Origin: a virus
Taxonomy: Duplodnaviria > Caudoviricetes
DNA: 60,108 nt
Virus record (IMG/VR): IMGVR_UViG_3300045000_000060
Span: 1-60,108 of that record
Strand: one strand, 5' to 3'
The notes under the pieces are model-generated. The model was not told where the DNA came from, ran no database searches, and worked only from the letters and a program-made list of their open reading frames with translations. Positions within the stretch are counted from its first letter, which is position 1. Each line of letters begins with the position of its first letter. The translations under genes were made by a program, and so were the position numbers. Below, piece after piece: positions 1 through 19,575 of the stretch.

Positions 1-45
1 GTCCCGGCCCCCCTTGGCTAGAGATTCGACCCCCCCTCCCCCTTA
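1..45 (-). other. probable cos/packaging-site region
   Basis: G-rich GGGGGAGGGGGGGTCGAATCTCTAG...GGGGGGCCGGGAC on the minus strand at the end of the HNH gene; terS runs off the other window end, which is the usual HNH-cos-terS order. Confidence 0.45.
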
Positions 46-365
46 CGTCCGAAGCCCTGATCCCTGGCTGTCCGGGCCGAGTGGTGCGGCTTGCAGAAGG
101 GGCGCAGGTTGGACCACACGAGACGCAGGTCCGGGCGCGCCTCTATCGAGAGGACGTGGTCGACATCCACAGTCGGCAGCCCGCACCCCTGCACACAACA
201 ATGGGGATGGGCGGCGATGAACTGCTTACGAACAGCCCGCCAAGCAGCGTCATAACCACGCTCTGCGGAGCTGGGTCTTTGCTTGTCGATGATCGCCTTG
301 CGTTCCCGCTCGTTGTTGTAGCGAGGCATCCAAGCGGGGCGAAAGACCGGCGGTCTGCCTGGCAT
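18..365 (-). CDS. terminase-associated HNH endonuclease
   Basis: RGYDAAW, CCVQGC, DVDH, NLRPFCKPHH motifs; precedes terS on the circle. Confidence 0.9.
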   Translation of the reverse strand: MPGRPPVFRPAWMPRYNNERERKAIIDKQRPSSAERGYDAAWRAVRKQFIAAHPHCCVQGCGLPTVDVDHVLSIEARPDLRLVWSNLRPFCKPHHSARTARDQGFGRKGEGGSNL

Positions 366-3790: not shown

Positions 3791-4338
3791 GGCGCACCTG
3801 CCTTGCTGCGCATCTCCGCGAGGTCGATCGGCCTATCAGGCTTTCGCCTGCGCAGCCGATCGAAGCGCTCGATCTCAGCGAGGATGAGCGCGCCGGCCCG
3901 CACAAGATCGCGGCGGAACCCTTGCGGCTTCCACCAGTCGGCGTCCCAAGGCCACTCATTTGGCGGGACGTTCAGCATCGTGCCGGCCTTGCGGGCGTAG
4001 GCGCCGCCAGCGCGCGCGAGCTCGCCCGTCGCATGGGCATCGTCGTGCTCGGTCGTCCATCCTTCGGTGTCGACCTGCCGCCGCCGCTCGGCGATCACCG
4101 CCAACATCGCGGGCGACATCGGCACGCGGATATGCAGCGCCTCGAACACCCGGCGCAGAATGAAGGTCCGCCCGATCGACACGAAGGTCATGATCACGGC
4201 GAACAATAGGTTTTGCTGAAAGGTAATCGACACCCCGATCAAAGGCAGGAAAAACCATTGCGCCGCAAGCGAGATACCAAAGCCCGCCAGTGTGTTGAGA
4301 ACTGCCTCGGTGAGTGAGGCGCTGCGGGATTGTTTCAT
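3787..4338 (-). CDS. two-TM domain fused to a helical phage domain
   Basis: hydrophobic N-terminus; C-terminal AERRRQ...EGWT.EHDD...WPW...RRDLVRAGALILAEIER. Confidence 0.75.
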   Translation of the reverse strand: MKQSRSASLTEAVLNTLAGFGISLAAQWFFLPLIGVSITFQQNLLFAVIMTFVSIGRTFILRRVFEALHIRVPMSPAMLAVIAERRRQVDTEGWTTEHDDAHATGELARAGGAYARKAGTMLNVPPNEWPWDADWWKPQGFRRDLVRAGALILAEIERFDRLRRRKPDRPIDLAEMRSKAGAP

Positions 4339-5513
4339 GGGGCGGTATCCGCGATCTCGGGAGTTTCGGTCTTGACGATCTCTCCGGTCTTTGGATCGAA
4401 GGGTTCGTCGGAGGAAGGTGGCGGATTGAACGCGATCTCGTTTCCCCAGGTCAGCCAGCCCGGCCGCTCGCGCCTCGCATAGAGTTCGAGATATGGGCCG
4501 CCGACCAAGCGCTCGATGCGATCGTGGATCTCATCCGGCTTGCGGCTATGCTCCATCACCGGCGCGACGATGAGCTGCCGCACGTCGTGATGAATGCACT
4601 TCGGATGCCCGCGCGATGCGAGCCAGCAGTCTTCAGGGTTGGCGCGTGTCCAATAGCCTTGGCCAAAATGGAAATCGCGATCGGTAATGACGTCATCGAA
4701 ACGCGGCTTGCCATCATGGCCTTCGGTGAGTTTTGCCCATGTGAATGCCGTGGTCTTATGCGCGAAGCCCCAGGCCTCGATCACCTCGAGGGCGAGCTTC
4801 GGACACCAATCGACCATCCACATGAAGAGAACGCAGTCGGGCGCGGCTAGTTGAGCGACCGGGAGCGAGATGATCTCCTGCCAGCTTCGATCCGTCGTGT
4901 AGTGCTGGCCGGCGGATCGGCCCTCGCCTTTCTCGCTGCGGGCGACGAAGTGCCAAGGCGGGTCGGCAAGAATGGCGCTCGCACGGAAGCCAGATGCGAT
5001 GAGCGCGTGAAGATCATCTGCCGTGCCGCCAGCGAATGATCGCGCCGCGTGTTCGGCCTTGCGGCTGGCGTCAGCGGCATCTTTGGCAGCGGCCTTGATG
5101 GGGTCGACTACGATCGCACCAGATGCCGCGACATGCTCCCGCGTCGCCTCCACCAGCGCTTCGAACGCTCGGTCGGAGATTGATGCCGCTCTTTGCGCTC
5201 GCGCCGATAGCTTGCGATCGACGCCGGCCTCTTCCAGAGTGGCGCGTGGAAATTGTTCCGATTGAGAACTATTTCCAGGCTGGCGGCCCTGCCTGAAGTG
5301 ACCCGCCTCTTTCGCCGCCGCGATGATGATGCCGAGACGGCGCTCGGCCTTCATTTGAAAGGCGTTGGCTTCGGCGAGCAATTCGCGATCGGCGATCTGC
5401 TTGGCGTAGAGCTTGACGTGCTGGACTTCGTCAAGGATTGGAAGCACTTGGTCGATGCGGGTCGCATCCGCCAAGGCTACGCGGGCGCGGTCATATTGGG
5501 CGAGCGTCGTCAT
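4335..5513 (-). CDS. MT-A70 family N6-adenine methyltransferase
   Basis: ILADPPW, LFMW, AWGF, GYWTRANPE, HSRKP, LELYAR, WGNE. Confidence 0.92.
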   Translation of the reverse strand: MTTLAQYDRARVALADATRIDQVLPILDEVQHVKLYAKQIADRELLAEANAFQMKAERRLGIIIAAAKEAGHFRQGRQPGNSSQSEQFPRATLEEAGVDRKLSARAQRAASISDRAFEALVEATREHVAASGAIVVDPIKAAAKDAADASRKAEHAARSFAGGTADDLHALIASGFRASAILADPPWHFVARSEKGEGRSAGQHYTTDRSWQEIISLPVAQLAAPDCVLFMWMVDWCPKLALEVIEAWGFAHKTTAFTWAKLTEGHDGKPRFDDVITDRDFHFGQGYWTRANPEDCWLASRGHPKCIHHDVRQLIVAPVMEHSRKPDEIHDRIERLVGGPYLELYARRERPGWLTWGNEIAFNPPPSSDEPFDPKTGEIVKTETPEIADTAP

Positions 5514-11151: not shown

Positions 11152-11192
11152 CGTTTCACGTGAAACATCGATTCACGGGAAGCGGGGCGGTC

Positions 11193-12203
11193 ATGCAACT
11201 CAGGGACCACGAAGGCGTCAAAGGCAAGCGGGACGCCTATCCGTTTGACCCGCGATTATTGAAAATAGATTTTTCGTACAACGTAAGGGACCTTTCGTCA
11301 CCCGACGCGGTCGAAAAGCTCGGGGAGCTGAAAGAGTCCATCCGCGCCAACGGGGTACGCATGCCCCTGGAGGTCCGTCTCGACGGCGACGACGTGTTCA
11401 TCGTCGCCGGCCATCGCCGGCACAAGGCGGTGATGGAACTCATCGACGAAGGGGCCGAAATAGAAACCGTTTTGGTCCTCCACGAGGCCAAGGGCACCAA
11501 CGACGCGGAACGCACCCTCAATCTCGTGGTGTCAAATTCGGGCGAGCCGCTCAAGCCGCTGGAAGTGGCCGAGGTGGTGCGGCGTCTGGTGAACTACGGC
11601 TGGACCGAAGCGCAGGTGATGGCCCGGCTGGGCTGGAAGTCGACAGCGACGGTGCGCCAGCATCTCGACATGCTGGCCATGCCGGCGGCGGTGCAGCAAC
11701 AGGTCCGGGACGGCGACGTATCGGCGACGCTAGCCGTCAAGATCACCAAGCAGGCCAAGGAAGCCAAGGCGGACCCGGAATTCGCTGCGCAACTGATCGC
11801 CGCCAACAAGGAAGAAAACAAGCGGCTGGGCGTCGGGGTGCGCCACAAGGTGACGCCCCGGACGATCAAGCGGGACGCCAAGCCAAAGCCGGCGGCACCG
11901 GCGGAGCCCGCCCCGCCGGTTGCCGTGTTCGCCCAGCCGCCCGAACCGGAATCGATTTCTCTCCCCGCCGCGATCGAGGAACTTGAGACGCATCCGGTCA
12001 ACGGCGTGAACGGCGACGCAGACGCGGTCGCATTCGATCCCCTCACCAACCAGGACATCATCGCAGCAATCCGGCCGATCGCGGGCCTCGCCGAACAATG
12101 GGATCTCAACGAGATCGCCGACGATCATCTGATCCCGGTTTTAGCCTCTGACATCAAACGGGTTGCGCTGGTTTATGCGCGGGTCACGGGGGGAGAGCGA
12201 TGA
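11193..12203 (+). CDS. ParB/Srx-domain protein
   Basis: NVR...LKESIRANGV..PL...IVAGHRRHKA, LKPLEVAE, HTH. Confidence 0.88.
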   Translation: MQLRDHEGVKGKRDAYPFDPRLLKIDFSYNVRDLSSPDAVEKLGELKESIRANGVRMPLEVRLDGDDVFIVAGHRRHKAVMELIDEGAEIETVLVLHEAKGTNDAERTLNLVVSNSGEPLKPLEVAEVVRRLVNYGWTEAQVMARLGWKSTATVRQHLDMLAMPAAVQQQVRDGDVSATLAVKITKQAKEAKADPEFAAQLIAANKEENKRLGVGVRHKVTPRTIKRDAKPKPAAPAEPAPPVAVFAQPPEPESISLPAAIEELETHPVNGVNGDADAVAFDPLTNQDIIAAIRPIAGLAEQWDLNEIADDHLIPVLASDIKRVALVYARVTGGER

Positions 12204-14757: not shown

Positions 14758-15191
14758 ACGCCCCAACTACCGACTTTCGGCCGGATCTGCCCTTGCGGCT
14801 CGATATCGCCGCACGAACCGCCTTCCCCGATGGCTCGATGACGGCCAGTGGACTGCGCAAGGAAGCCGGCCGCGGCAACCTTGTCATCTCCCGCATGGCG
14901 GGCAAGGATTACACCACCTTGAACGCCATCGCCCGAATGAGGGAACTATGCCAACTCCCGCCAAAGGAACGCGCCTCTGGCTCCGCAAGGCCCGCCGGGA
15001 TCGGAGCGGCAGAATCACCCGCAAGTCGGTCTGGCTCATCCGCGATGGAAAGCGCGACAAGAGCACTGGCTGCGGCCCGGGCGAGCGTGCAGGCGCTGAA
15101 AAATCCCTCTCAGCCTACCTCAACCGCAAGCAAGTCACCGACGTCACCAAGGGGGTCCGTCATCCCTCTCAGATCCCGGTCGCCTCCGTGA
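14754..15191 (+). CDS. xis: excisionase
   Basis: PLRLDIAA...FPDGSMTASGLRKEA.RG.L...GKDYTTL..I..MR..C; overlaps the int start. Confidence 0.8.
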   Translation: MNAPTTDFRPDLPLRLDIAARTAFPDGSMTASGLRKEAGRGNLVISRMAGKDYTTLNAIARMRELCQLPPKERASGSARPAGIGAAESPASRSGSSAMESATRALAAARASVQALKNPSQPTSTASKSPTSPRGSVIPLRSRSPP

Positions 15192-16096
15192 TCGCGCTCT
15201 ACTCAGAAGCGAAAGCAGAAGGCCACGCCCGGCCGAAAGAGACCGGAGCGCGGTTTGATAATCTGCTGGATTTTTTCGGCGACAAGATGCTGTCGGATAT
15301 CAACGGCGATCTTTGCCGAAAATATGCTGCGGCCCGATCGACCGACGCGGCAGCACGGCGCGAGCTCGAAGATTTACGCGCAGCGGTCAACATGCACCTT
15401 CAGGAAGGCCAGTGCTCCGAGATCATCAAGATCGTTCTCCCAAGACGCCGGCCGCCGCGCGAGCGATGGCTGACCCGCCAGGAGGCCGCGCAGCTCATCC
15501 GCCACGCCTGGCACTACCGGGAGATTCAGAAGGGTAGCCCCACGGGCCGCTTCAGCCGACGGCACCTCGCAAAATTCAGTCTTGTGGCTGCTTACACCGG
15601 CACACGAGCATCGGCCATCTGCGGGGCCGCGCTGCAGCCGACACCGGGGAGCGGGTGGATCGACCTTGAGCGCGGCGTTTTCTACCGACGCCCGATCGGC
15701 AAGCAGCAGACCAAGAAGCGGCAACCCGCGATCCCACTCCCCGTCGGCCTGCTCACGCACCTGCGCCGCTGGAAACGCATGGGACAGCGTTATGCCGTCG
15801 AATGGAATGGACAGCCCGTGCGCTCGGTCAGCAAGGGGTTCCGAAATGCCGTTCGCGACGCCGGCCTGAGCGCCGATGTCACGCCGCACGTCTGGCGGCA
15901 CACGTGCGCGACGTGGATGCTCCAGCGCGGCACGCCGCCCTTCGAGGTCGCCGGCTACACCGGCATGACGCTGCAGACCGTCCAGGACATCTATGGCCAC
16001 CACAGCCCGGATCATCTGTCGAAGGCCCGCAAGAGCTTTTCGCAACATCGCGACGATGCTGTGGCCGATGCTGTGGCCCGGAGGGCTGCGAAATGA
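14948..16096 (+). CDS. int: tyrosine integrase
   Basis: YTGTR, K, HVWRH, Y(for H)TG, YGH catalytic set; next to attP. Confidence 0.93.
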   Translation: MPTPAKGTRLWLRKARRDRSGRITRKSVWLIRDGKRDKSTGCGPGERAGAEKSLSAYLNRKQVTDVTKGVRHPSQIPVASVIALYSEAKAEGHARPKETGARFDNLLDFFGDKMLSDINGDLCRKYAAARSTDAAARRELEDLRAAVNMHLQEGQCSEIIKIVLPRRRPPRERWLTRQEAAQLIRHAWHYREIQKGSPTGRFSRRHLAKFSLVAAYTGTRASAICGAALQPTPGSGWIDLERGVFYRRPIGKQQTKKRQPAIPLPVGLLTHLRRWKRMGQRYAVEWNGQPVRSVSKGFRNAVRDAGLSADVTPHVWRHTCATWMLQRGTPPFEVAGYTGMTLQTVQDIYGHHSPDHLSKARKSFSQHRDDAVADAVARRAAK

Positions 16097-16280: not shown

Positions 16281-16472
16281 ATGACCGCCTCCCAATCCGC
16301 CACCCCCGCCTTCGCCGACGCGAGCGAGACCGCGCTCGACCAGCCGCTCCCCGAACTCCCGCCCGGCAAGAAGTACGGCCCGCGCATCGGCGGCTGGGGC
16401 CCGTACTCGATTATCGACGATGTGGCCGTTGCGCGCGATCAGGCCGCTGAGAGGGGATCAGTAAATTCGTGA
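16281..16472 (+). CDS. hypothetical protein
   Basis: GTGA-coupled to methylase 1. Confidence 0.45.
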   Translation: MTASQSATPAFADASETALDQPLPELPPGKKYGPRIGGWGPYSIIDDVAVARDQAAERGSVNS

Positions 16473-17467
16473 ACTACTACAACGAGATTGACCCATATGC
16501 AGCGCAGTGGCTCCGCAACCTCATCGACGCCGGACACATCGCCAGAGGCGACGTTGACGAGCGGAGCATCGTCGACGTGCGATCAGGCGAGCTCGCCGGT
16601 TACACGCAATGCCATTTCTTCGCTGGCATCGGCGGATGGTCCGTCGCACTCCGCCTCGCCGGCTGGTCCGATGACAGACCTGTTTGGACAGGCTCATGCC
16701 CCTGCCAGCCCTTCAGTGCCGCCGGCGCGGGCAAGGCGGCCGATGACGAACGCCACCTGTGGCCTGCGTGGTTTTCTCTCATCGCCGAGTGCCGCCCTCC
16801 AATCGTCTTTGGAGAGCAGGTTGAAGCGGCGATTGGATGGGGCTGGCTCGACGCTGTTTTCGCTGACCTGGAGGGCGAAGGCTACGCCTGCGGGGCGGCC
16901 GTACTCCCAGCTTGCGGCGTCGGCGCTCCGCATATCCGACAGCGAACATGGTTCGTGGCCAACACCGATGGCCGGGACACCAGCGCAGAAGGGCTACAAC
17001 GAGGCGGGGAACACGGACAGCAGCCGCAAAATGGTCTCGCTATGCGCGGGCTGGGCGACGCCTCGAAGCACGGAAGCGGGTCACTCGACCGGCAACCCGG
17101 ATCGCGCGCTCAATCACCGGAGCCGGCTGGAGGATCAGATTTTCCTCGCGTCTTGGTCAACACCGCGGGCGAACAAGTGGGGATTCCCGGATGCACATGG
17201 CAGCCAGGAAGCCCCATGGGCAACGCCGACAGCGAACGAGAAACGGCGTCGGGAGGATTTTCAAGAGGGCCGATCACTCAACGCGCTCGAAGCTTTTGGT
17301 CCGAAGCCGAATGGATCGAATGTCGGGACGGCCAGCAGCGGCCAATTGAACCCGGATCATCCCCGCTGGCTCATGGGATACCGGCGCGACCATCTAAGCT
17401 TCGCGCCTACGGCAACGCGATCGTTCCGCAAGTCGCGGCTGAATTCATCAAAGCCGCCTGCGATTAA
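16469..17467 (+). CDS. C5-cytosine DNA methyltransferase 1 (alpha chain)
   Basis: FFAGIGG, TGSCPCQPFS, GEQV, PHIRQR, YGNAIVP. Confidence 0.92.
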   Translation: MNYYNEIDPYAAQWLRNLIDAGHIARGDVDERSIVDVRSGELAGYTQCHFFAGIGGWSVALRLAGWSDDRPVWTGSCPCQPFSAAGAGKAADDERHLWPAWFSLIAECRPPIVFGEQVEAAIGWGWLDAVFADLEGEGYACGAAVLPACGVGAPHIRQRTWFVANTDGRDTSAEGLQRGGEHGQQPQNGLAMRGLGDASKHGSGSLDRQPGSRAQSPEPAGGSDFPRVLVNTAGEQVGIPGCTWQPGSPMGNADSERETASGGFSRGPITQRARSFWSEAEWIECRDGQQRPIEPGSSPLAHGIPARPSKLRAYGNAIVPQVAAEFIKAACD

Positions 17468-17522
17468 ATCCAACTCTAGTACATGTGCGTCCGAGGTTTC
17501 ACCTGCAACCAAAGGAGAATGA
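16488..17522 (+). CDS. nested +1-frame ORF: putative methylase 1 beta chain (TRD repeats plus motif IX)
   Basis: 344 open codons; four WxTP repeats; GQLNPDHPRWLMGY; true start uncertain. Confidence 0.7.
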   Translation: MTHMQRSGSATSSTPDTSPEATLTSGASSTCDQASSPVTRNAISSLASADGPSHSASPAGPMTDLFGQAHAPASPSVPPARARRPMTNATCGLRGFLSSPSAALQSSLESRLKRRLDGAGSTLFSLTWRAKATPAGRPYSQLAASALRISDSEHGSWPTPMAGTPAQKGYNEAGNTDSSRKMVSLCAGWATPRSTEAGHSTGNPDRALNHRSRLEDQIFLASWSTPRANKWGFPDAHGSQEAPWATPTANEKRRREDFQEGRSLNALEAFGPKPNGSNVGTASSGQLNPDHPRWLMGYRRDHLSFAPTATRSFRKSRLNSSKPPAIKSNSSTCASEVSPATKGE

Positions 17523-17524
17523 AC

Positions 17525-17842
17525 ATGTATTTCGATCCGACACTGCGCACCGACGCGAAGCCGATCGAGACGAAGGCAGATCCTTTCAAGCTCGGCACGC
17601 TCATCGCGTGGCTAGAGAAGCAGCCGGCCGACAAGCCGTATTGCTATCTCAGTTGCGGCGAGTGCCTGCTGGCAAATTACTTTACGGCGCACGGCCTCAA
17701 GCGGGTCTCGCTTGGCTACAACGCGCTCCACCACTCAGGGGGCATCAGGCTATTGCCGCCGGATTTCAACGACATCGCCTACTACGGAACGCGGACCTAT
17801 GGCGCTGCGCTCGATCGCGCGCGGGCATTGGTGCAGCGGTGA
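17525..17842 (+). CDS. hypothetical protein
   Basis: RBS AAGGAG; LIAWLEKQP...CLLANY. Confidence 0.7.
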   Translation: MYFDPTLRTDAKPIETKADPFKLGTLIAWLEKQPADKPYCYLSCGECLLANYFTAHGLKRVSLGYNALHHSGGIRLLPPDFNDIAYYGTRTYGAALDRARALVQR

Positions 17843-17874
17843 CAGAACATTCTACAGTTACAGGAGAAACCACC

Positions 17875-18246
17875 ATGTCGGATATTCTTTGGTGCTGCCA
17901 CGTTCGCGGTCCTGACGACGTTTACGCCGCGCCGGATTACGACACCGCGCTCAAGTGGGCGGACATAACTAACGCCTTCAACTGGCGCGGACGGAAGGGG
18001 ACAGTCGCACCGCCAGTCTCCTACGAAGACTGTCTGCTGAAAGCCGCCCCTGCCATCTGGCCTTGGAGCGCGGAAGCGCATGCGGAGAACCTCCCGAAGT
18101 CGATCGCGGACTTCGCGCCGCGTGGGGCCGGCATCGCAGTCGGAGAGAGCAACACAATCGAACATGGCGACGGCAGCGTGACGACCGCAACACGGCTGCC
18201 GGATGCGCCGGATGGCACGCCGCAAATTGCTCTTAAAAGGCAATAA
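17875..18246 (+). CDS. hypothetical phage protein
   Basis: RBS AGGAG; LWCCHVRGPDDVYAAP...WPWSAEAH. Confidence 0.7.
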   Translation: MSDILWCCHVRGPDDVYAAPDYDTALKWADITNAFNWRGRKGTVAPPVSYEDCLLKAAPAIWPWSAEAHAENLPKSIADFAPRGAGIAVGESNTIEHGDGSVTTATRLPDAPDGTPQIALKRQ

Positions 18247-18255
18247 GGGCGCGGC

Positions 18256-18567
18256 ATGACAGAACAGCAAACAGATGGACCGATCCCGCGCGCAGTTCTT
18301 GACGCTGCACGGCGGCGTATGTGCCGGTCCTTAGCCGCCGTCATCGTGCAGGCCATGGCCGATACAGACACCAACTTCACGACGATGGCATTCCGCATCG
18401 GGCAGAAGGAGAGCACGGTTCGCAGGTGGCTCGAAAAGCTGATCGACGGCGAGGATGACGGTCTCGCCCTAAACAATCTCTCGGACATGACGCTTGCCAT
18501 GGGGTGTGAGATTGATTTCTCCGTCCGACCCAAAGAGGAAACTAAGGGCGCGTCACAAAACCTATGA
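18256..18567 (+). CDS. XRE-like HTH protein
   Basis: MAFRIGQKESTVRRWL...LNNLSDMTLAMG. Confidence 0.65.
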   Translation: MTEQQTDGPIPRAVLDAARRRMCRSLAAVIVQAMADTDTNFTTMAFRIGQKESTVRRWLEKLIDGEDDGLALNNLSDMTLAMGCEIDFSVRPKEETKGASQNL

Positions 18568-19559
18568 ACTACTACAACGAGATTGACCCTTATGCAGCGC
18601 AATGGCTCCGTAACCTCATCGACGCCGGACACATCGCCCGAGGCGACGTTGACGAGCGGAGCATCGCCGACGTGCAGCCAGGCGATCTCGCCAGCTACAC
18701 CCAATGTCATTTCTTCGCCGGCATCGGAGGATGGTCCCTCGCCCTGCGACTCGCCGGATGGCCTGATGCCCGAGCCGTCTGGACCGGCTCCTGTCCGTGT
18801 CAGCCGCTTTCGAGCGCGGGACAGCGCAAGGGCCATGCCGACCAACGACATCTCTGGCCCGCTTTTCACCGCCTCATCTCCGAGTGCTCGCCTTCAATTG
18901 TCTTTGGAGAGCAGGTTGCGAGCGCGGATGGGCGTGAATGGCTCGCCGGAGTACGCGCTGATCTGGAAGCATTGGGATATGCCTGCGGGGGTGCCGATCT
19001 GTGCGCTGCGGGCGTCGGCGCGCCCCACATCCGACAGCGCCTTTATTGGCTGGCCCACGCCGAACATGCCGAACGGCGGACGGTCAATAGCCCATGCGGA
19101 GATGCGTGGGCGCACGGCAATGCACAAAGGAAAGAAGGTCCAGGTCGGATTGGAGGCGGTATCGCGGATGGTCTTACTCGGCTGGGACACGCCGACATCG
19201 CCCGTCAACACCAACGGTCACCAAGCGGGCAACAATCGCTACGTGACCAACTCGCTGCGGGTCTTGAAGGGCTGGGCTACGCCGCGGGCGCGGGACCACA
19301 AGAACAACGGCGTGAGTATCGCCCGGGCGGCGAAAGGTGTGGCGGACTCGTTGGATTTGCAGTCGAAGCTGGTGTGCCTCAGTGGAATGGCCCGACCATC
19401 GCCGTTGAGTGCTCGGATGGATGGCGCCGCGTTTCCGCTCAACCCGATGCATTCCCTCTGGCTCATGGGGTACGGGCCAGAATGGGAAAGCTGCGCGGTG
19501 CAGGCAACGCGATCAATCCGCAACTCGCCGCCGAATTCATCAAAGCAGCCGTCGAATAA
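18564..19559 (+). CDS. C5-cytosine DNA methyltransferase 2 (alpha chain)
   Basis: FFAGIGG, TGSCPCQPLS, GEQV, PHIRQR, AGNAINP; paralogue of 16469. Confidence 0.92.
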   Translation: MNYYNEIDPYAAQWLRNLIDAGHIARGDVDERSIADVQPGDLASYTQCHFFAGIGGWSLALRLAGWPDARAVWTGSCPCQPLSSAGQRKGHADQRHLWPAFHRLISECSPSIVFGEQVASADGREWLAGVRADLEALGYACGGADLCAAGVGAPHIRQRLYWLAHAEHAERRTVNSPCGDAWAHGNAQRKEGPGRIGGGIADGLTRLGHADIARQHQRSPSGQQSLRDQLAAGLEGLGYAAGAGPQEQRREYRPGGERCGGLVGFAVEAGVPQWNGPTIAVECSDGWRRVSAQPDAFPLAHGVRARMGKLRGAGNAINPQLAAEFIKAAVE

Positions 19560-19575
19560 TGGCCAGCCGACCTAG
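18583..19575 (+). CDS. nested +1-frame ORF: putative methylase 2 beta chain
   Basis: 330 open codons; three GWxTP repeats; PLNPMHSLWLMGY. Confidence 0.7.
   Translation: MTLMQRNGSVTSSTPDTSPEATLTSGASPTCSQAISPATPNVISSPASEDGPSPCDSPDGLMPEPSGPAPVRVSRFRARDSARAMPTNDISGPLFTASSPSARLQLSLESRLRARMGVNGSPEYALIWKHWDMPAGVPICALRASARPTSDSAFIGWPTPNMPNGGRSIAHAEMRGRTAMHKGKKVQVGLEAVSRMVLLGWDTPTSPVNTNGHQAGNNRYVTNSLRVLKGWATPRARDHKNNGVSIARAAKGVADSLDLQSKLVCLSGMARPSPLSARMDGAAFPLNPMHSLWLMGYGPEWESCAVQATRSIRNSPPNSSKQPSNNGQPT

What the first reader, a model, noticed from the sequence alone, without database searches (positions are those of the whole stretch)
16945..19400. Tandem WxTP modules in the nested chains suggest swappable, multispecific target recognition
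Seen: nested chain 1 has four repeats (SWPTP, GWATP, SWSTP, PWATP) and chain 2 has three (GWPTP, GWDTP, GWATP). Each is followed by a divergent 15-30 aa segment, often ending near S/G-L. Known: multispecific Bacillus phage C5 methylases use tandem TRDs. Inference: each repeat is a mini-TRD. The alpha frame only has to stay open across this region, so modules could be gained or lost in multiples of 3 nt. Cross-pairing of alpha1/alpha2 with beta1/beta2 could widen anti-restriction coverage.
Basis: inference. Interest (0 to 1): 0.7.

Follow-up and report, generated by a model that had tools for sequence, protein, structure and literature searches.

The report
Swappable recognition cassettes in two-frame methylase
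Two neighbouring phage DNA cytosine-methylase genes are each read in two overlapping frames, and the hidden second protein carries a string of short WxTP-anchored cassettes that related phages add, drop and exchange, probably to change which DNA sites the phage methylates to escape host restriction enzymes.

Summary
Beta1 has four W-x-T-P anchors and beta2 has three, against about 0.05 expected by composition. Selection acts on the beta frame, not on alpha.

Across 64 related loci the anchors head cassettes with a median length of 36 aa. Each has conserved ends and a variable middle, and there are 0-4 per protein. Twenty-eight of 30 locus pairs with at least 85% identical catalytic DNA carry different cassette sets. 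One pair differs by exactly one 33-aa cassette. Four cultured Xanthomonas phages with 99-100% identical catalytic halves carry 2 or 3 cassettes.

Both frames are kept open. Alpha is the catalytic large domain, with an unconstrained, disordered linker. Beta's conserved ends are predicted to dock on alpha (ipSAE 0.92, best control 0.00). This places the cassettes where a target-recognition domain belongs.

"Swappable" is therefore shown. "Each cassette is a mini-TRD giving multispecificity" remains inference. No methylome exists, the cassette region is modelled at low confidence, and no DNA model could be made.

The nested alpha/beta layout is known from M.EcoHK31I. Tandem TRDs are known from Bacillus phages. 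This scan has already met the same two-frame family, including WxTP arrays, on other DNA.

The parts
16469..17467 (+). alpha1: C5 cytosine methyltransferase catalytic chain. F-x-A-G-x-G-G at nt 16616, PCQ 16700, GEQV 16811, RQR 16937, GNAI 17411. Residues about 170-271 form an unconstrained linker.
   Evidence: PF00145 56.2 bits against cut-off 22, phrog_363 1.1e-83. AF2 pLDDT is 80-97 for residues 1-167 and 35-48 for 170-271. M.HhaI match Z 13.4, rmsd 3.0, 164 aligned.
16488..17522 (+). beta1: nested +1-frame chain, open from 16473. Likely start is TTG 16554 behind AGAGG, or ATG 16497 without a Shine-Dalgarno sequence.
   Evidence: No Pfam hit; phrog_1008 8.5e-23. No stop in frame. Start survey.
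16782..16955 (+). beta1 conserved N-side core: helix 101-118 and hairpin 125-145. It overlaps alpha motifs VI-VIII, so this stretch is dually constrained.
   Evidence: pLDDT 72-92. Interface residues 99-144 and 152-162. Alpha third-position entropy falls to about 0.9-1.0 here.
16956..17051 (+). beta1 cassette 1 (WPTP, 32 aa, type P). The same type occurs in L064, L082 and the Xanthomonas phages PhiXhv-1, -5, -7 and -28.
17052..17153 (+). beta1 cassette 2 (WATP, 34 aa, singleton in the sample)
17154..17216 (+). beta1 cassette 3 (WSTP, 21 aa, type V, shared with L032)
17217..17342 (+). beta1 cassette 4 (WATP, 42 aa, terminal)
17346..17378 (+). beta1 motif-IX-like LNPDHPRWLMG. It overlaps alpha's conserved C.DG..RP.EPG..PLAHG, so this stretch is dually constrained.
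   Evidence: W, L, M and G are invariant in 64 betas. All three codon positions have low entropy. Interface residues 284-313.
18564..19559 (+). alpha2: paralogous catalytic chain, 51% identical to alpha1, with the middle unalignable
18583..19575 (+). beta2: nested +1-frame chain. Likely start is TTG 18649 behind GAGG.
19051..19182 (+). beta2 cassette 1 (WPTP, 44 aa)
19183..19272 (+). beta2 cassette 2 (WDTP, 30 aa)
19273..19434 (+). beta2 cassette 3 (WATP, 54 aa, terminal)
19438..19470 (+). beta2 motif-IX-like LNPMHSLWLMG

Best explanation
Each locus most likely encodes a two-chain cytosine-5 DNA methyltransferase from one stretch of DNA. [quoted passage not shown] Its middle is only a stop-free linker. 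Beta is started separately about 30-40 codons into alpha, in the +1 frame. It has a conserved helix-hairpin and first WPTP on one side and a motif-IX-like LNP..WLMG on the other. Both sides dock on alpha. Between them lies a string of WxTP-anchored cassettes. Each has the form W-P/A-T-P-x-x-x-D..G at the start, a variable loop, and L...A.LAG at the end. The string occupies the topological place of the target-recognition domain. Phages exchange these cassettes as whole units at the LAG|W junction, and any unit must be stop-free in both frames. The cassettes most likely decide which DNA sequences are methylated. Extra cassettes most likely add recognition capacity, so the phage is protected against more restriction systems. 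Shown here: dual coding, the placement of selection, the cassette anatomy and the natural cassette turnover. Predicted: alpha-beta docking. Inferred: DNA recognition by the cassettes and one target per cassette.
For: Dual coding. In 64 of 66 intact loci the +1 frame has no stop between alpha codon 40 and the last 20 codons. Synonymous shuffles give a mean of 3.2 stops per gene, and the +2 frame has 748 stops in total. Beta-frame stops in alpha codons 40-105 number 0 against 28.2 expected in 63 loci. Alpha-frame stops across the beta-only middle number 0 against 117.3 expected in 49 loci. Codon-position entropy passes constraint from alpha (residues 3-167) to beta (168-283), to both (284-313) and back to alpha (314-328).

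Docking. ipSAE 0.92 (runs 0.93, 0.92, 0.91) against a best of 3 controls of 0.00. That mark was reached by 58 of 80 solved complexes and 2 of 110 mismatched pairs. The runs share at least 50% of contacts, and partner pLDDT is at least 49. The beta interface is 99-144, 152-162, 179, 182-189 and 284-313.

Cassettes. There are 153 in 64 betas, giving 29 recurring types and 57 singletons. The same type is found at different positions. Conserved positions: W 100%, T 98%, P 90%, D 65% at +7, L 70% at -9, L 62% at -3. Counts per protein are 0:1, 1:16, 2:20, 3:11 and 4:16, with r = 0.83 against alpha length.

Turnover. Twenty-eight of 30 pairs with at least 85% identical catalytic DNA differ in architecture. 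L076 and L080 are identical except for one 33-aa cassette. L043 and L046 differ by one cassette replaced and one added. PhiXhv-7, -5, -1 and -28 carry 2, 3, 3 and 3 cassettes with 99-100% identical catalytic halves.

Precedents. M.EcoHK31I (passages of PMC2836561). Tandem TRDs of Bacillus phages (passage of PMC12707154).
Against: No methylation data exist for any member that I could find (paper searches). The cassette region is modelled at pLDDT 38-52 alone, and cassettes 2-4 make no confident contact in the complex. A folded mini-TRD is therefore not supported by the models. Cassette composition is poor in hydrophobic residues (G 12%, A 12%, T 10%, S 8%, P 7.5%). The beta profile finds no solved structure by sequence (0 hits at E up to 10) and has no Pfam hit. 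The motif-IX likeness rests on my reading of the sequence against a recalled consensus. The complex pass may reflect likeness to solved single-chain C5 methyltransferases, because halves of a split enzyme tend to pass. Taken alone, the window's two loci are only marginally significant for frame openness: the share of shuffles with no stop is 0.065 and 0.022, and 0.044 and 0.122. The 64 loci are related to each other, so the expected-stop sums overstate independence.
Confidence: 0.62

Rival explanations
1. Strict multispecificity. Each cassette is an independent mini-TRD with its own target sequence, as in M.SPRI or M.Phi3TI. On this view the number of methylated motifs equals the number of cassettes.
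For: One-cassette enzymes exist (16 of 64), so one cassette seems to be enough. Cassettes are inserted, appended or replaced next to unchanged neighbours in otherwise identical enzymes. That argues the units work independently. Every cassette keeps the same anchors, as expected if each must engage the same core. Cassette size, median 36 aa, is close to the TRD size I recall for the Bacillus phage enzymes; that figure is recalled and was not checked because PMC450048 is not held.
Against: There is no methylome. No model confidence supports a fold. Similarity to SPR-type TRDs was not tested. The first anchor is part of the invariant core.
Confidence: 0.3
2. Composite reader. All cassettes together form one extended DNA-binding surface or clamp. 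Cassette number and type then tune footprint length, degeneracy or affinity of a single, possibly relaxed, specificity, and do not add separate targets.
For: The cassettes are loop-rich and low in hydrophobic residues, and are predicted to be unstructured alone. That fits folding on DNA. Some types keep fixed positions: O is first in 3 of 3 cases, and M and a26 are last in 3 of 3 and 2 of 2. Semi-specific orphan methylases of mobile elements are described in a passage of PMC12707154.
Against: Frequent insertion or replacement of a single unit between unchanged neighbours would disturb a cooperative surface. Many types occur at any position; type B is seen at 1/1, 1/3, 2/3, 3/3, 1/4 and 3/4.
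Confidence: 0.25
3. The cassettes do not read DNA. They are a flexible spacer carrying short linear motifs that bind other phage or host proteins, or that regulate the enzyme.
For: The region is predicted disordered and shows rapid turnover typical of conflict interfaces.
Against: The cassettes sit exactly between the two beta segments that dock on the catalytic chain, where the TRD lies in single-chain enzymes. Alpha itself has no constrained recognition region, so the enzyme would otherwise lack one.
Confidence: 0.07
4. One polypeptide is made by two programmed frameshifts (alpha motifs I-VIII, then beta cassettes and motif IX, then alpha motif X), or the second frame is an annotation shadow of the first.
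For: Read that way, the motif order matches a canonical C5 methyltransferase.
Against: Both frames are kept open well outside the parts such a product would use. Most loci have an ATG behind a Shine-Dalgarno-like core at alpha codons -20, -14 or -10 relative to motif I. Synonymous variation at the anchors follows the beta frame, so beta is not a shadow.
Confidence: 0.03

Closest known systems
M.EcoHK31I (E. coli HK31, YGGCCR), alpha/beta C5 methyltransferase; Lee, Kam and Shaw 1995, as described in PMC2836561 (passages read)
   Same: There are two polypeptides, and the beta gene lies in another reading frame inside the alpha gene. [quoted passage not shown] The N-terminal part of beta is dispensable in that enzyme and unconstrained here.
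   Different: In that paper's account alpha also holds the TRD and beta is small. Here alpha's middle is unconstrained and the whole variable, cassette-bearing region is on beta. That enzyme belongs to a restriction-modification system; these are phage genes with no nuclease seen nearby.
Multispecific C5 methyltransferases of temperate Bacillus phages (M.SPRI, M.Phi3TI and relatives); passage in PMC12707154 and titles in reference lists
   Same: A phage-borne orphan enzyme carries several tandem short variable units between the catalytic motifs and motif IX. The idea is the same: one enzyme protects against several restriction systems.
   Different: Those enzymes are single polypeptides whose TRD specificities were mapped experimentally. 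Here the units are on a separate nested chain, are bounded by WxTP and LAG anchors, must stay open in two frames, and have no measured specificity. Sequence likeness to those TRDs was not tested.
M.AquI, a two-subunit C5 methyltransferase (recalled; only a search listing seen)
   Same: A C5 methyltransferase split into two chains within the variable region.
   Different: As I recall, its two genes overlap only slightly and lie end to end. They are not nested over about 1 kb.

Membership tests
C5 cytosine DNA methyltransferase (PF00145), alpha chain | Pfam model above its gathering score | tested here: met
   56.2 and 56.0 bits against cut-off 22, covering residues 74-172 only
C5 cytosine DNA methyltransferase (PF00145), alpha chain | Catalytic motifs: F-x-G-x-G, P-C-Q, E-N-V-like, Q/R-x-R-x-R, G-N-x-x | tested here: met
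   FAGIGG, PCQ, GEQV, RQR and GNAI are present in both copies. The motif names come from general knowledge of the family.
C5 cytosine DNA methyltransferase (PF00145), alpha chain | Large-domain fold like M.HhaI | tested here: met
   2z6a_A Z 13.4, rmsd 3.0, 164 aligned, model 1..332 against chain 35..320. Foldseek E 1.5e-6.
C5 cytosine DNA methyltransferase (PF00145), alpha chain | TRD and motif IX in the same polypeptide | tested here: not met
   Alpha 168-283 shows no amino-acid constraint and pLDDT 35-48. The conserved variable region lies in the +1 frame.
M.EcoHK31I-type nested alpha/beta methyltransferase | Beta reading frame lies inside the alpha gene in another frame and is conserved | tested here: met
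   In this window beta runs 55 and 16 nt past the alpha stop.
M.EcoHK31I-type nested alpha/beta methyltransferase | Beta supplies motif IX | tested here: inconclusive
   LNP..WLMG.P..W is invariant in 64 betas and looks like motif IX by eye against a recalled consensus. There is no Pfam or PDB sequence hit.
M.EcoHK31I-type nested alpha/beta methyltransferase | Both chains associate and both are needed for activity | tested here: inconclusive
   Association is predicted only: ipSAE 0.92 against control 0.00. Activity cannot be tested with these tools.
M.EcoHK31I-type nested alpha/beta methyltransferase | TRD on alpha, as described for M.EcoHK31I | tested here: not met
M.EcoHK31I-type nested alpha/beta methyltransferase | Sequence homology to M.EcoHK31I alpha and beta | not tested
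   No tool gave me that sequence.
Multispecific phage C5 methyltransferases (SPR type) | Several tandem recognition units between motif VIII and motif IX | tested here: inconclusive
   Zero to four cassettes lie in the equivalent place, but on beta. That they recognise DNA is inferred.
Multispecific phage C5 methyltransferases (SPR type) | Each unit confers one target specificity, and units can be removed without loss of the others | not testable with these tools
   Natural single-unit indels in otherwise identical enzymes exist, but no methylomes.
Multispecific phage C5 methyltransferases (SPR type) | Single polypeptide | tested here: not met
   Two frames. No PF00145-bearing fused form among 9 longer relatives or the best 120 of 2411 relatives of similar length.

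The most novel reading that the evidence does not exclude
Register-shifting multispecific enzyme. Every cassette carries the same docking anchors, WxTP at its start and L...A.LAG at its end. Any one cassette can therefore seat itself in the single pocket formed by alpha and the beta core and present its own variable loop to the DNA, while the other cassettes loop out. On this reading specificity is a library of alternative registers on a disordered chain, and phages edit the library by recombination at the conserved LAG|WPTP junction. Every cassette must also read stop-free in the alpha frame.
Probability: 0.2. Interest if true: 0.8.

Novelty: new variant of a known kind. Interest (0 to 1): 0.6.

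Why it matters
If the cassettes set target choice, this very common phage enzyme would be a natural, easily re-shuffled kit for DNA recognition. I counted at least 580 IMG/VR stretches, 211 phage records and 2411 protein clusters. The kit is written under the unusual rule that every part must be readable in two frames. It would explain how one small gene lets phages keep pace with changing host restriction systems. Natural pairs that differ by a single cassette are ready-made experiments. It would also correct annotation, which usually lists one frame only or calls beta 'hypothetical'. The layout and the tandem-TRD idea each have a precedent, so the new points are their combination and the scale.

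Tried and rejected
- Beta alone against solved structures. The sequence profile gave 0 hits at E up to 10. The fold search with VIA-align gave a best Z of 3.9, on the helix-hairpin only. This says nothing about the cassette fold.
- ESM Atlas. The nearest clusters are viral 'hypothetical protein' with no Pfam family, and no structure search was possible.
- First cassette clustering by single linkage lumped 106 of 153 cassettes into one cluster through the shared anchors. I replaced it with average linkage on identity outside the anchor.
- Test for recent horizontal transfer of cassettes. Cassette nucleotide identity against catalytic-core identity has medians of 0.77 and 0.74. Only 12 of 179 pairs exceed the core by 0.10 or more. 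There is no strong signal beyond positional reshuffling.
- DNA-level repeats. Only the roughly 20-nt anchors recur, and TRF finds nothing.
- Fused single-chain forms. Nine longer relatives were found and none carries PF00145. This is weak evidence, as the tool itself warns.
- Literature on measured specificities of this family, or on WPTP cassettes. Nothing was found. The classic TRD papers PMC457134 and PMC450048 are not held, so TRD sizes and consensus are recalled only.
Full report
**What is in the window.** The window is a whole temperate siphovirus-type record. It has terminase, portal, capsid and tail genes on the minus strand, an integrase at 14948-16093, and a third methyltransferase (phrog_359) at 4335-5510. 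Downstream of the integrase lie two paralogous loci. Each has two almost co-extensive open frames on the + strand. They are alpha1 16469-17467 with beta1 16488-17522, and alpha2 18564-19559 with beta2 18583-19575. Alpha matches PF00145 (56 bits against cut-off 22, residues 74-172 only) and phrog_363 over its full length. Beta has no Pfam family but matches phrog_1008.

**The observation.** Beta1 carries SWPTP, GWATP, SWSTP and PWATP. Beta2 carries GWPTP, GWDTP and GWATP. Composition predicts about 0.05 such motifs per protein, and the alpha frames have none. Spacings are 21-54 aa. At DNA level only the roughly 20-nt anchor recurs, and there is no tandem repeat. The motif is selected in the beta frame. 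In 137 distinct anchor contexts the Thr and Pro codons use all four third bases, while the alpha frame reads the same bases as 61 different tetrapeptides.

**Are both frames genes?** I fetched alpha relatives without regard to beta.
- In those 80 loci, +1-frame stops lie only in alpha codons 0-39 and in the last few codons. The exceptions are L054, which has many stops after codon 264, and L035, where alpha reads on. The +2 frame has 4-26 stops per locus.
- Seventy-seven of the 80 loci had an alpha stop inside the locus. With the two window loci that makes 79.
- Sixty-six passed my intactness test: GN[AGS][IVLW] near the alpha C-terminus, W[LM]MG in beta, and beta ending within -120 to +60 nt of the alpha stop. 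Thirteen were dropped: L012, L020, L023, L024, L029, L034, L035, L054, L055, L070, L074, L077 and L081. The WLMG criterion presupposes some openness of beta.
- In 64 of the 66 the +1 frame has no stop between codon 40 and the last 20 codons. A thousand synonymous shuffles per gene give 3.2 stops on average, with a median chance of zero stops of 0.013.
- For the window's own two loci that chance is 0.065 and 0.022. The case therefore rests on the family, whose members are related and not fully independent.

**Where selection acts.** I used 64 non-redundant loci.
- Alpha residues 3-167: alpha's third codon position is the most variable. Its entropy falls to about 0.9-1.0 over residues 108-152.
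- Residues 168-283: the most variable position is alpha position 1, which is beta position 3.
- Residues 284-313: all three positions are quiet.
- Residues 314-328 (motif X): the pattern returns to alpha only.

Two further tests speak against a single chain made by two frameshifts.
- Beta-frame stops in alpha codons 40-105 number 0 against 28.2 expected. This used 63 loci; L084 was dropped for lack of a motif match.
- Alpha-frame stops across the beta-only middle number 0 against 117.3 expected, and the third frame has 238 stops there. This used 49 loci; 13 were dropped for lack of the C.DG landmark and L072 because the region was too short.

Most loci have an ATG behind a Shine-Dalgarno-like core at alpha codon -20, -14 or -10 relative to motif I. 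The window's two copies have TTG at -21 (nt 16554 and 18649) behind AGAGG and GAGG.

**Structure.**
- AlphaFold2 folds alpha1 well at residues 1-167 (pLDDT 80-97, apart from the catalytic loop 80-88). The last helix is also confident. Residues 170-271 score 35-48.
- The model superposes on M.HhaI at Z 13.4, rmsd 3.0, 164 residues aligned, model 1..332 on chain 35..320. Foldseek gives E 1.5e-6. Alpha is therefore the large domain only.
- Beta1 alone is confident only at helix 101-118, hairpin 125-145 and residues 285-305. The cassette region 155-284 scores 38-52.
- The alpha1+beta1 complex scored ipSAE 0.92 (runs 0.93, 0.92, 0.91) against a best of three controls of 0.00. That mark was reached by 58 of 80 solved complexes and 2 of 110 mismatched pairs. 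The runs share at least 50% of their contacts. Partner pLDDT is at least 49, so beta's own fold is uncertain.
- My own alignments were used, and single-chain C5 methyltransferases are solved. The pass may therefore reflect likeness to those structures.
- The confident interface uses beta 99-144, 152-162 (including the first WPTP), 179, 182-189 and 284-313. On alpha it uses 9-23, 54-59, 122-167 and 272-332.
- Cassettes 2-4 make no confident contact. The cassette string thus lies between the two docking segments of beta, in the place a TRD has in a one-chain enzyme. Whether it touches DNA could not be modelled.

**The cassettes across the family.**
- In 64 betas I cut 160 units at relaxed anchors and dropped 7 that were the conserved core.
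- Conserved positions at the start are W 100%, P 61% or A 17%, T 98%, P 90% and D 65% at +7, followed by a G-rich stretch. At the end they are L 70% at -9, A 57% at -5, L 62% at -3, A 63% at -2 and G 56% or S 24% at -1. The interior is variable. The median internal length is 36 aa.
- Counts per protein are 0:1, 1:16, 2:20, 3:11 and 4:16, and they correlate with alpha length at r = 0.83.
- Average-linkage clustering on identity outside the anchor gives 29 recurring types and 57 singletons. The same type occurs at different positions. Type B, for example, is seen at 1/1, 1/3, 2/3, 3/3, 1/4 and 3/4.
- Beta1 reads P-.-V-., and its cassettes 1 and 3 recur in other loci. Beta2's three cassettes are singletons in this sample.

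**Turnover.**
- Of 30 locus pairs with at least 85% identity over 330 nt around PCQ, 28 have different architectures.
- L076 and L080 are identical apart from one 33-aa cassette inserted exactly at ...LA|GW... and a single substitution.
- L043 and L046 (96% core identity) have one cassette replaced and one 38-aa cassette added.
- Four cultured Xanthomonas phages have catalytic halves 99-100% identical over 160 aa. PhiXhv-7 has two cassettes, PhiXhv-5 has the same two plus one on the C side, and PhiXhv-1 and -28 have the same two plus one on the N side. One shared cassette is the type of beta1's first cassette.
- A test for very recent lateral transfer of cassettes gave little. Median nucleotide identities are 0.77 for cassettes and 0.74 for the core.

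**Reading.** The 'mini-TRD, multispecific' half fits several facts: the position of the cassettes, one-cassette enzymes, unit-wise indels beside unchanged neighbours, and each unit keeping the same anchors. It is still unproven, and the models give the cassettes no fold. A composite reader is the main rival. Cross-pairing of the paralogues is open: predicted interface residues are 53 of 86 and 39 of 78 identical.

**What is known.**
[quoted passage not shown] Alpha holds motifs I-VIII, X and the TRD, and beta holds motif IX (passages of PMC2836561).
- Bacillus temperate phages array several target recognition domains in one polypeptide (passage of PMC12707154).
- My searches found no description of this phage family or of WxTP cassettes. 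The library lacks most subscription journals. PMC11855218 (passages) concerns a nuclease hidden out of frame in an actinophage methylase, not these cassettes.
- Beta relatives are plentiful and unnamed. There are 2411 clusters at E up to 1e-5 among 3435 candidates, and the best 120 have no Pfam family. tblastn finds 211 phage records, 81 of which cover at least 80% of beta1.
- Annotation is inconsistent. Both frames are annotated in PhiXhv-5 and PhiXhv-28, beta only in Cr-LKS3 and PhiXhv-7, and alpha only in eiAU and PhiXhv-1.
- Earlier notes of this scan report the same two-frame family on other DNA at least 44 times, three of them with WxTP arrays. I treated these as leads only. I had reached M.EcoHK31I from recall and checked it before looking them up.

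**Verdict.** This is a real feature with a well-supported anatomy. It is a new variant that combines two known ideas, and its function remains to be measured.

Noticed in passing
window 16469-16720 and 18564-18815 (alpha N-termini): The motif order in alpha is unusual. NEID (motif-II-like) and DERSI.DV (motif-III-like) come before F-x-A-G-x-G-G, which sits only 23 residues ahead of PCQ. The model's first residue aligns to M.HhaI residue 35. The strand carrying the AdoMet loop therefore seems to be moved between strands 3 and 4, a permuted large domain.
   Followed up: partly
window 16469-16590 against 18564-18685: The two paralogues are 93% identical in DNA over the first 120 nt. Identity is 65-75% over the rest of the catalytic part and about 50% over the cassettes. 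This suggests gene conversion or a recombination breakpoint near the 5' end.
   Followed up: partly
window 4335-5510 (-): There is a third DNA methyltransferase (phrog_359, 2.5e-76) in the same phage, beside an ATPase-like gene and a ParB-like gene at 11160-12200.
   Followed up: no
L004 1600-3018 (Edwardsiella phage eiAU): The beta frame runs on without a stop into the annotated N6-adenine methyltransferase gene downstream, giving a 472-codon open frame. L023 beta also runs 472 nt past the alpha stop. These may be beta-Dam fusions or merely a missing stop.
   Followed up: no
L020, L070, L074, L077 (IMG/VR loci): In these loci the alpha frame is cut short (103-212 codons from the match start) while the +1 frame stays open far beyond it. 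They could be frameshifted copies, sequencing errors or another arrangement.
   Followed up: no
L075 (IMG/VR locus): This is the one beta without any W-anchored cassette. It has GSPTP where the others have G/S-WPTP.
   Followed up: no
window 17483-18564: Three small open frames of unknown function (119, 128 and 103 aa; no PHROG hit) separate the two methylase loci.
   Followed up: no
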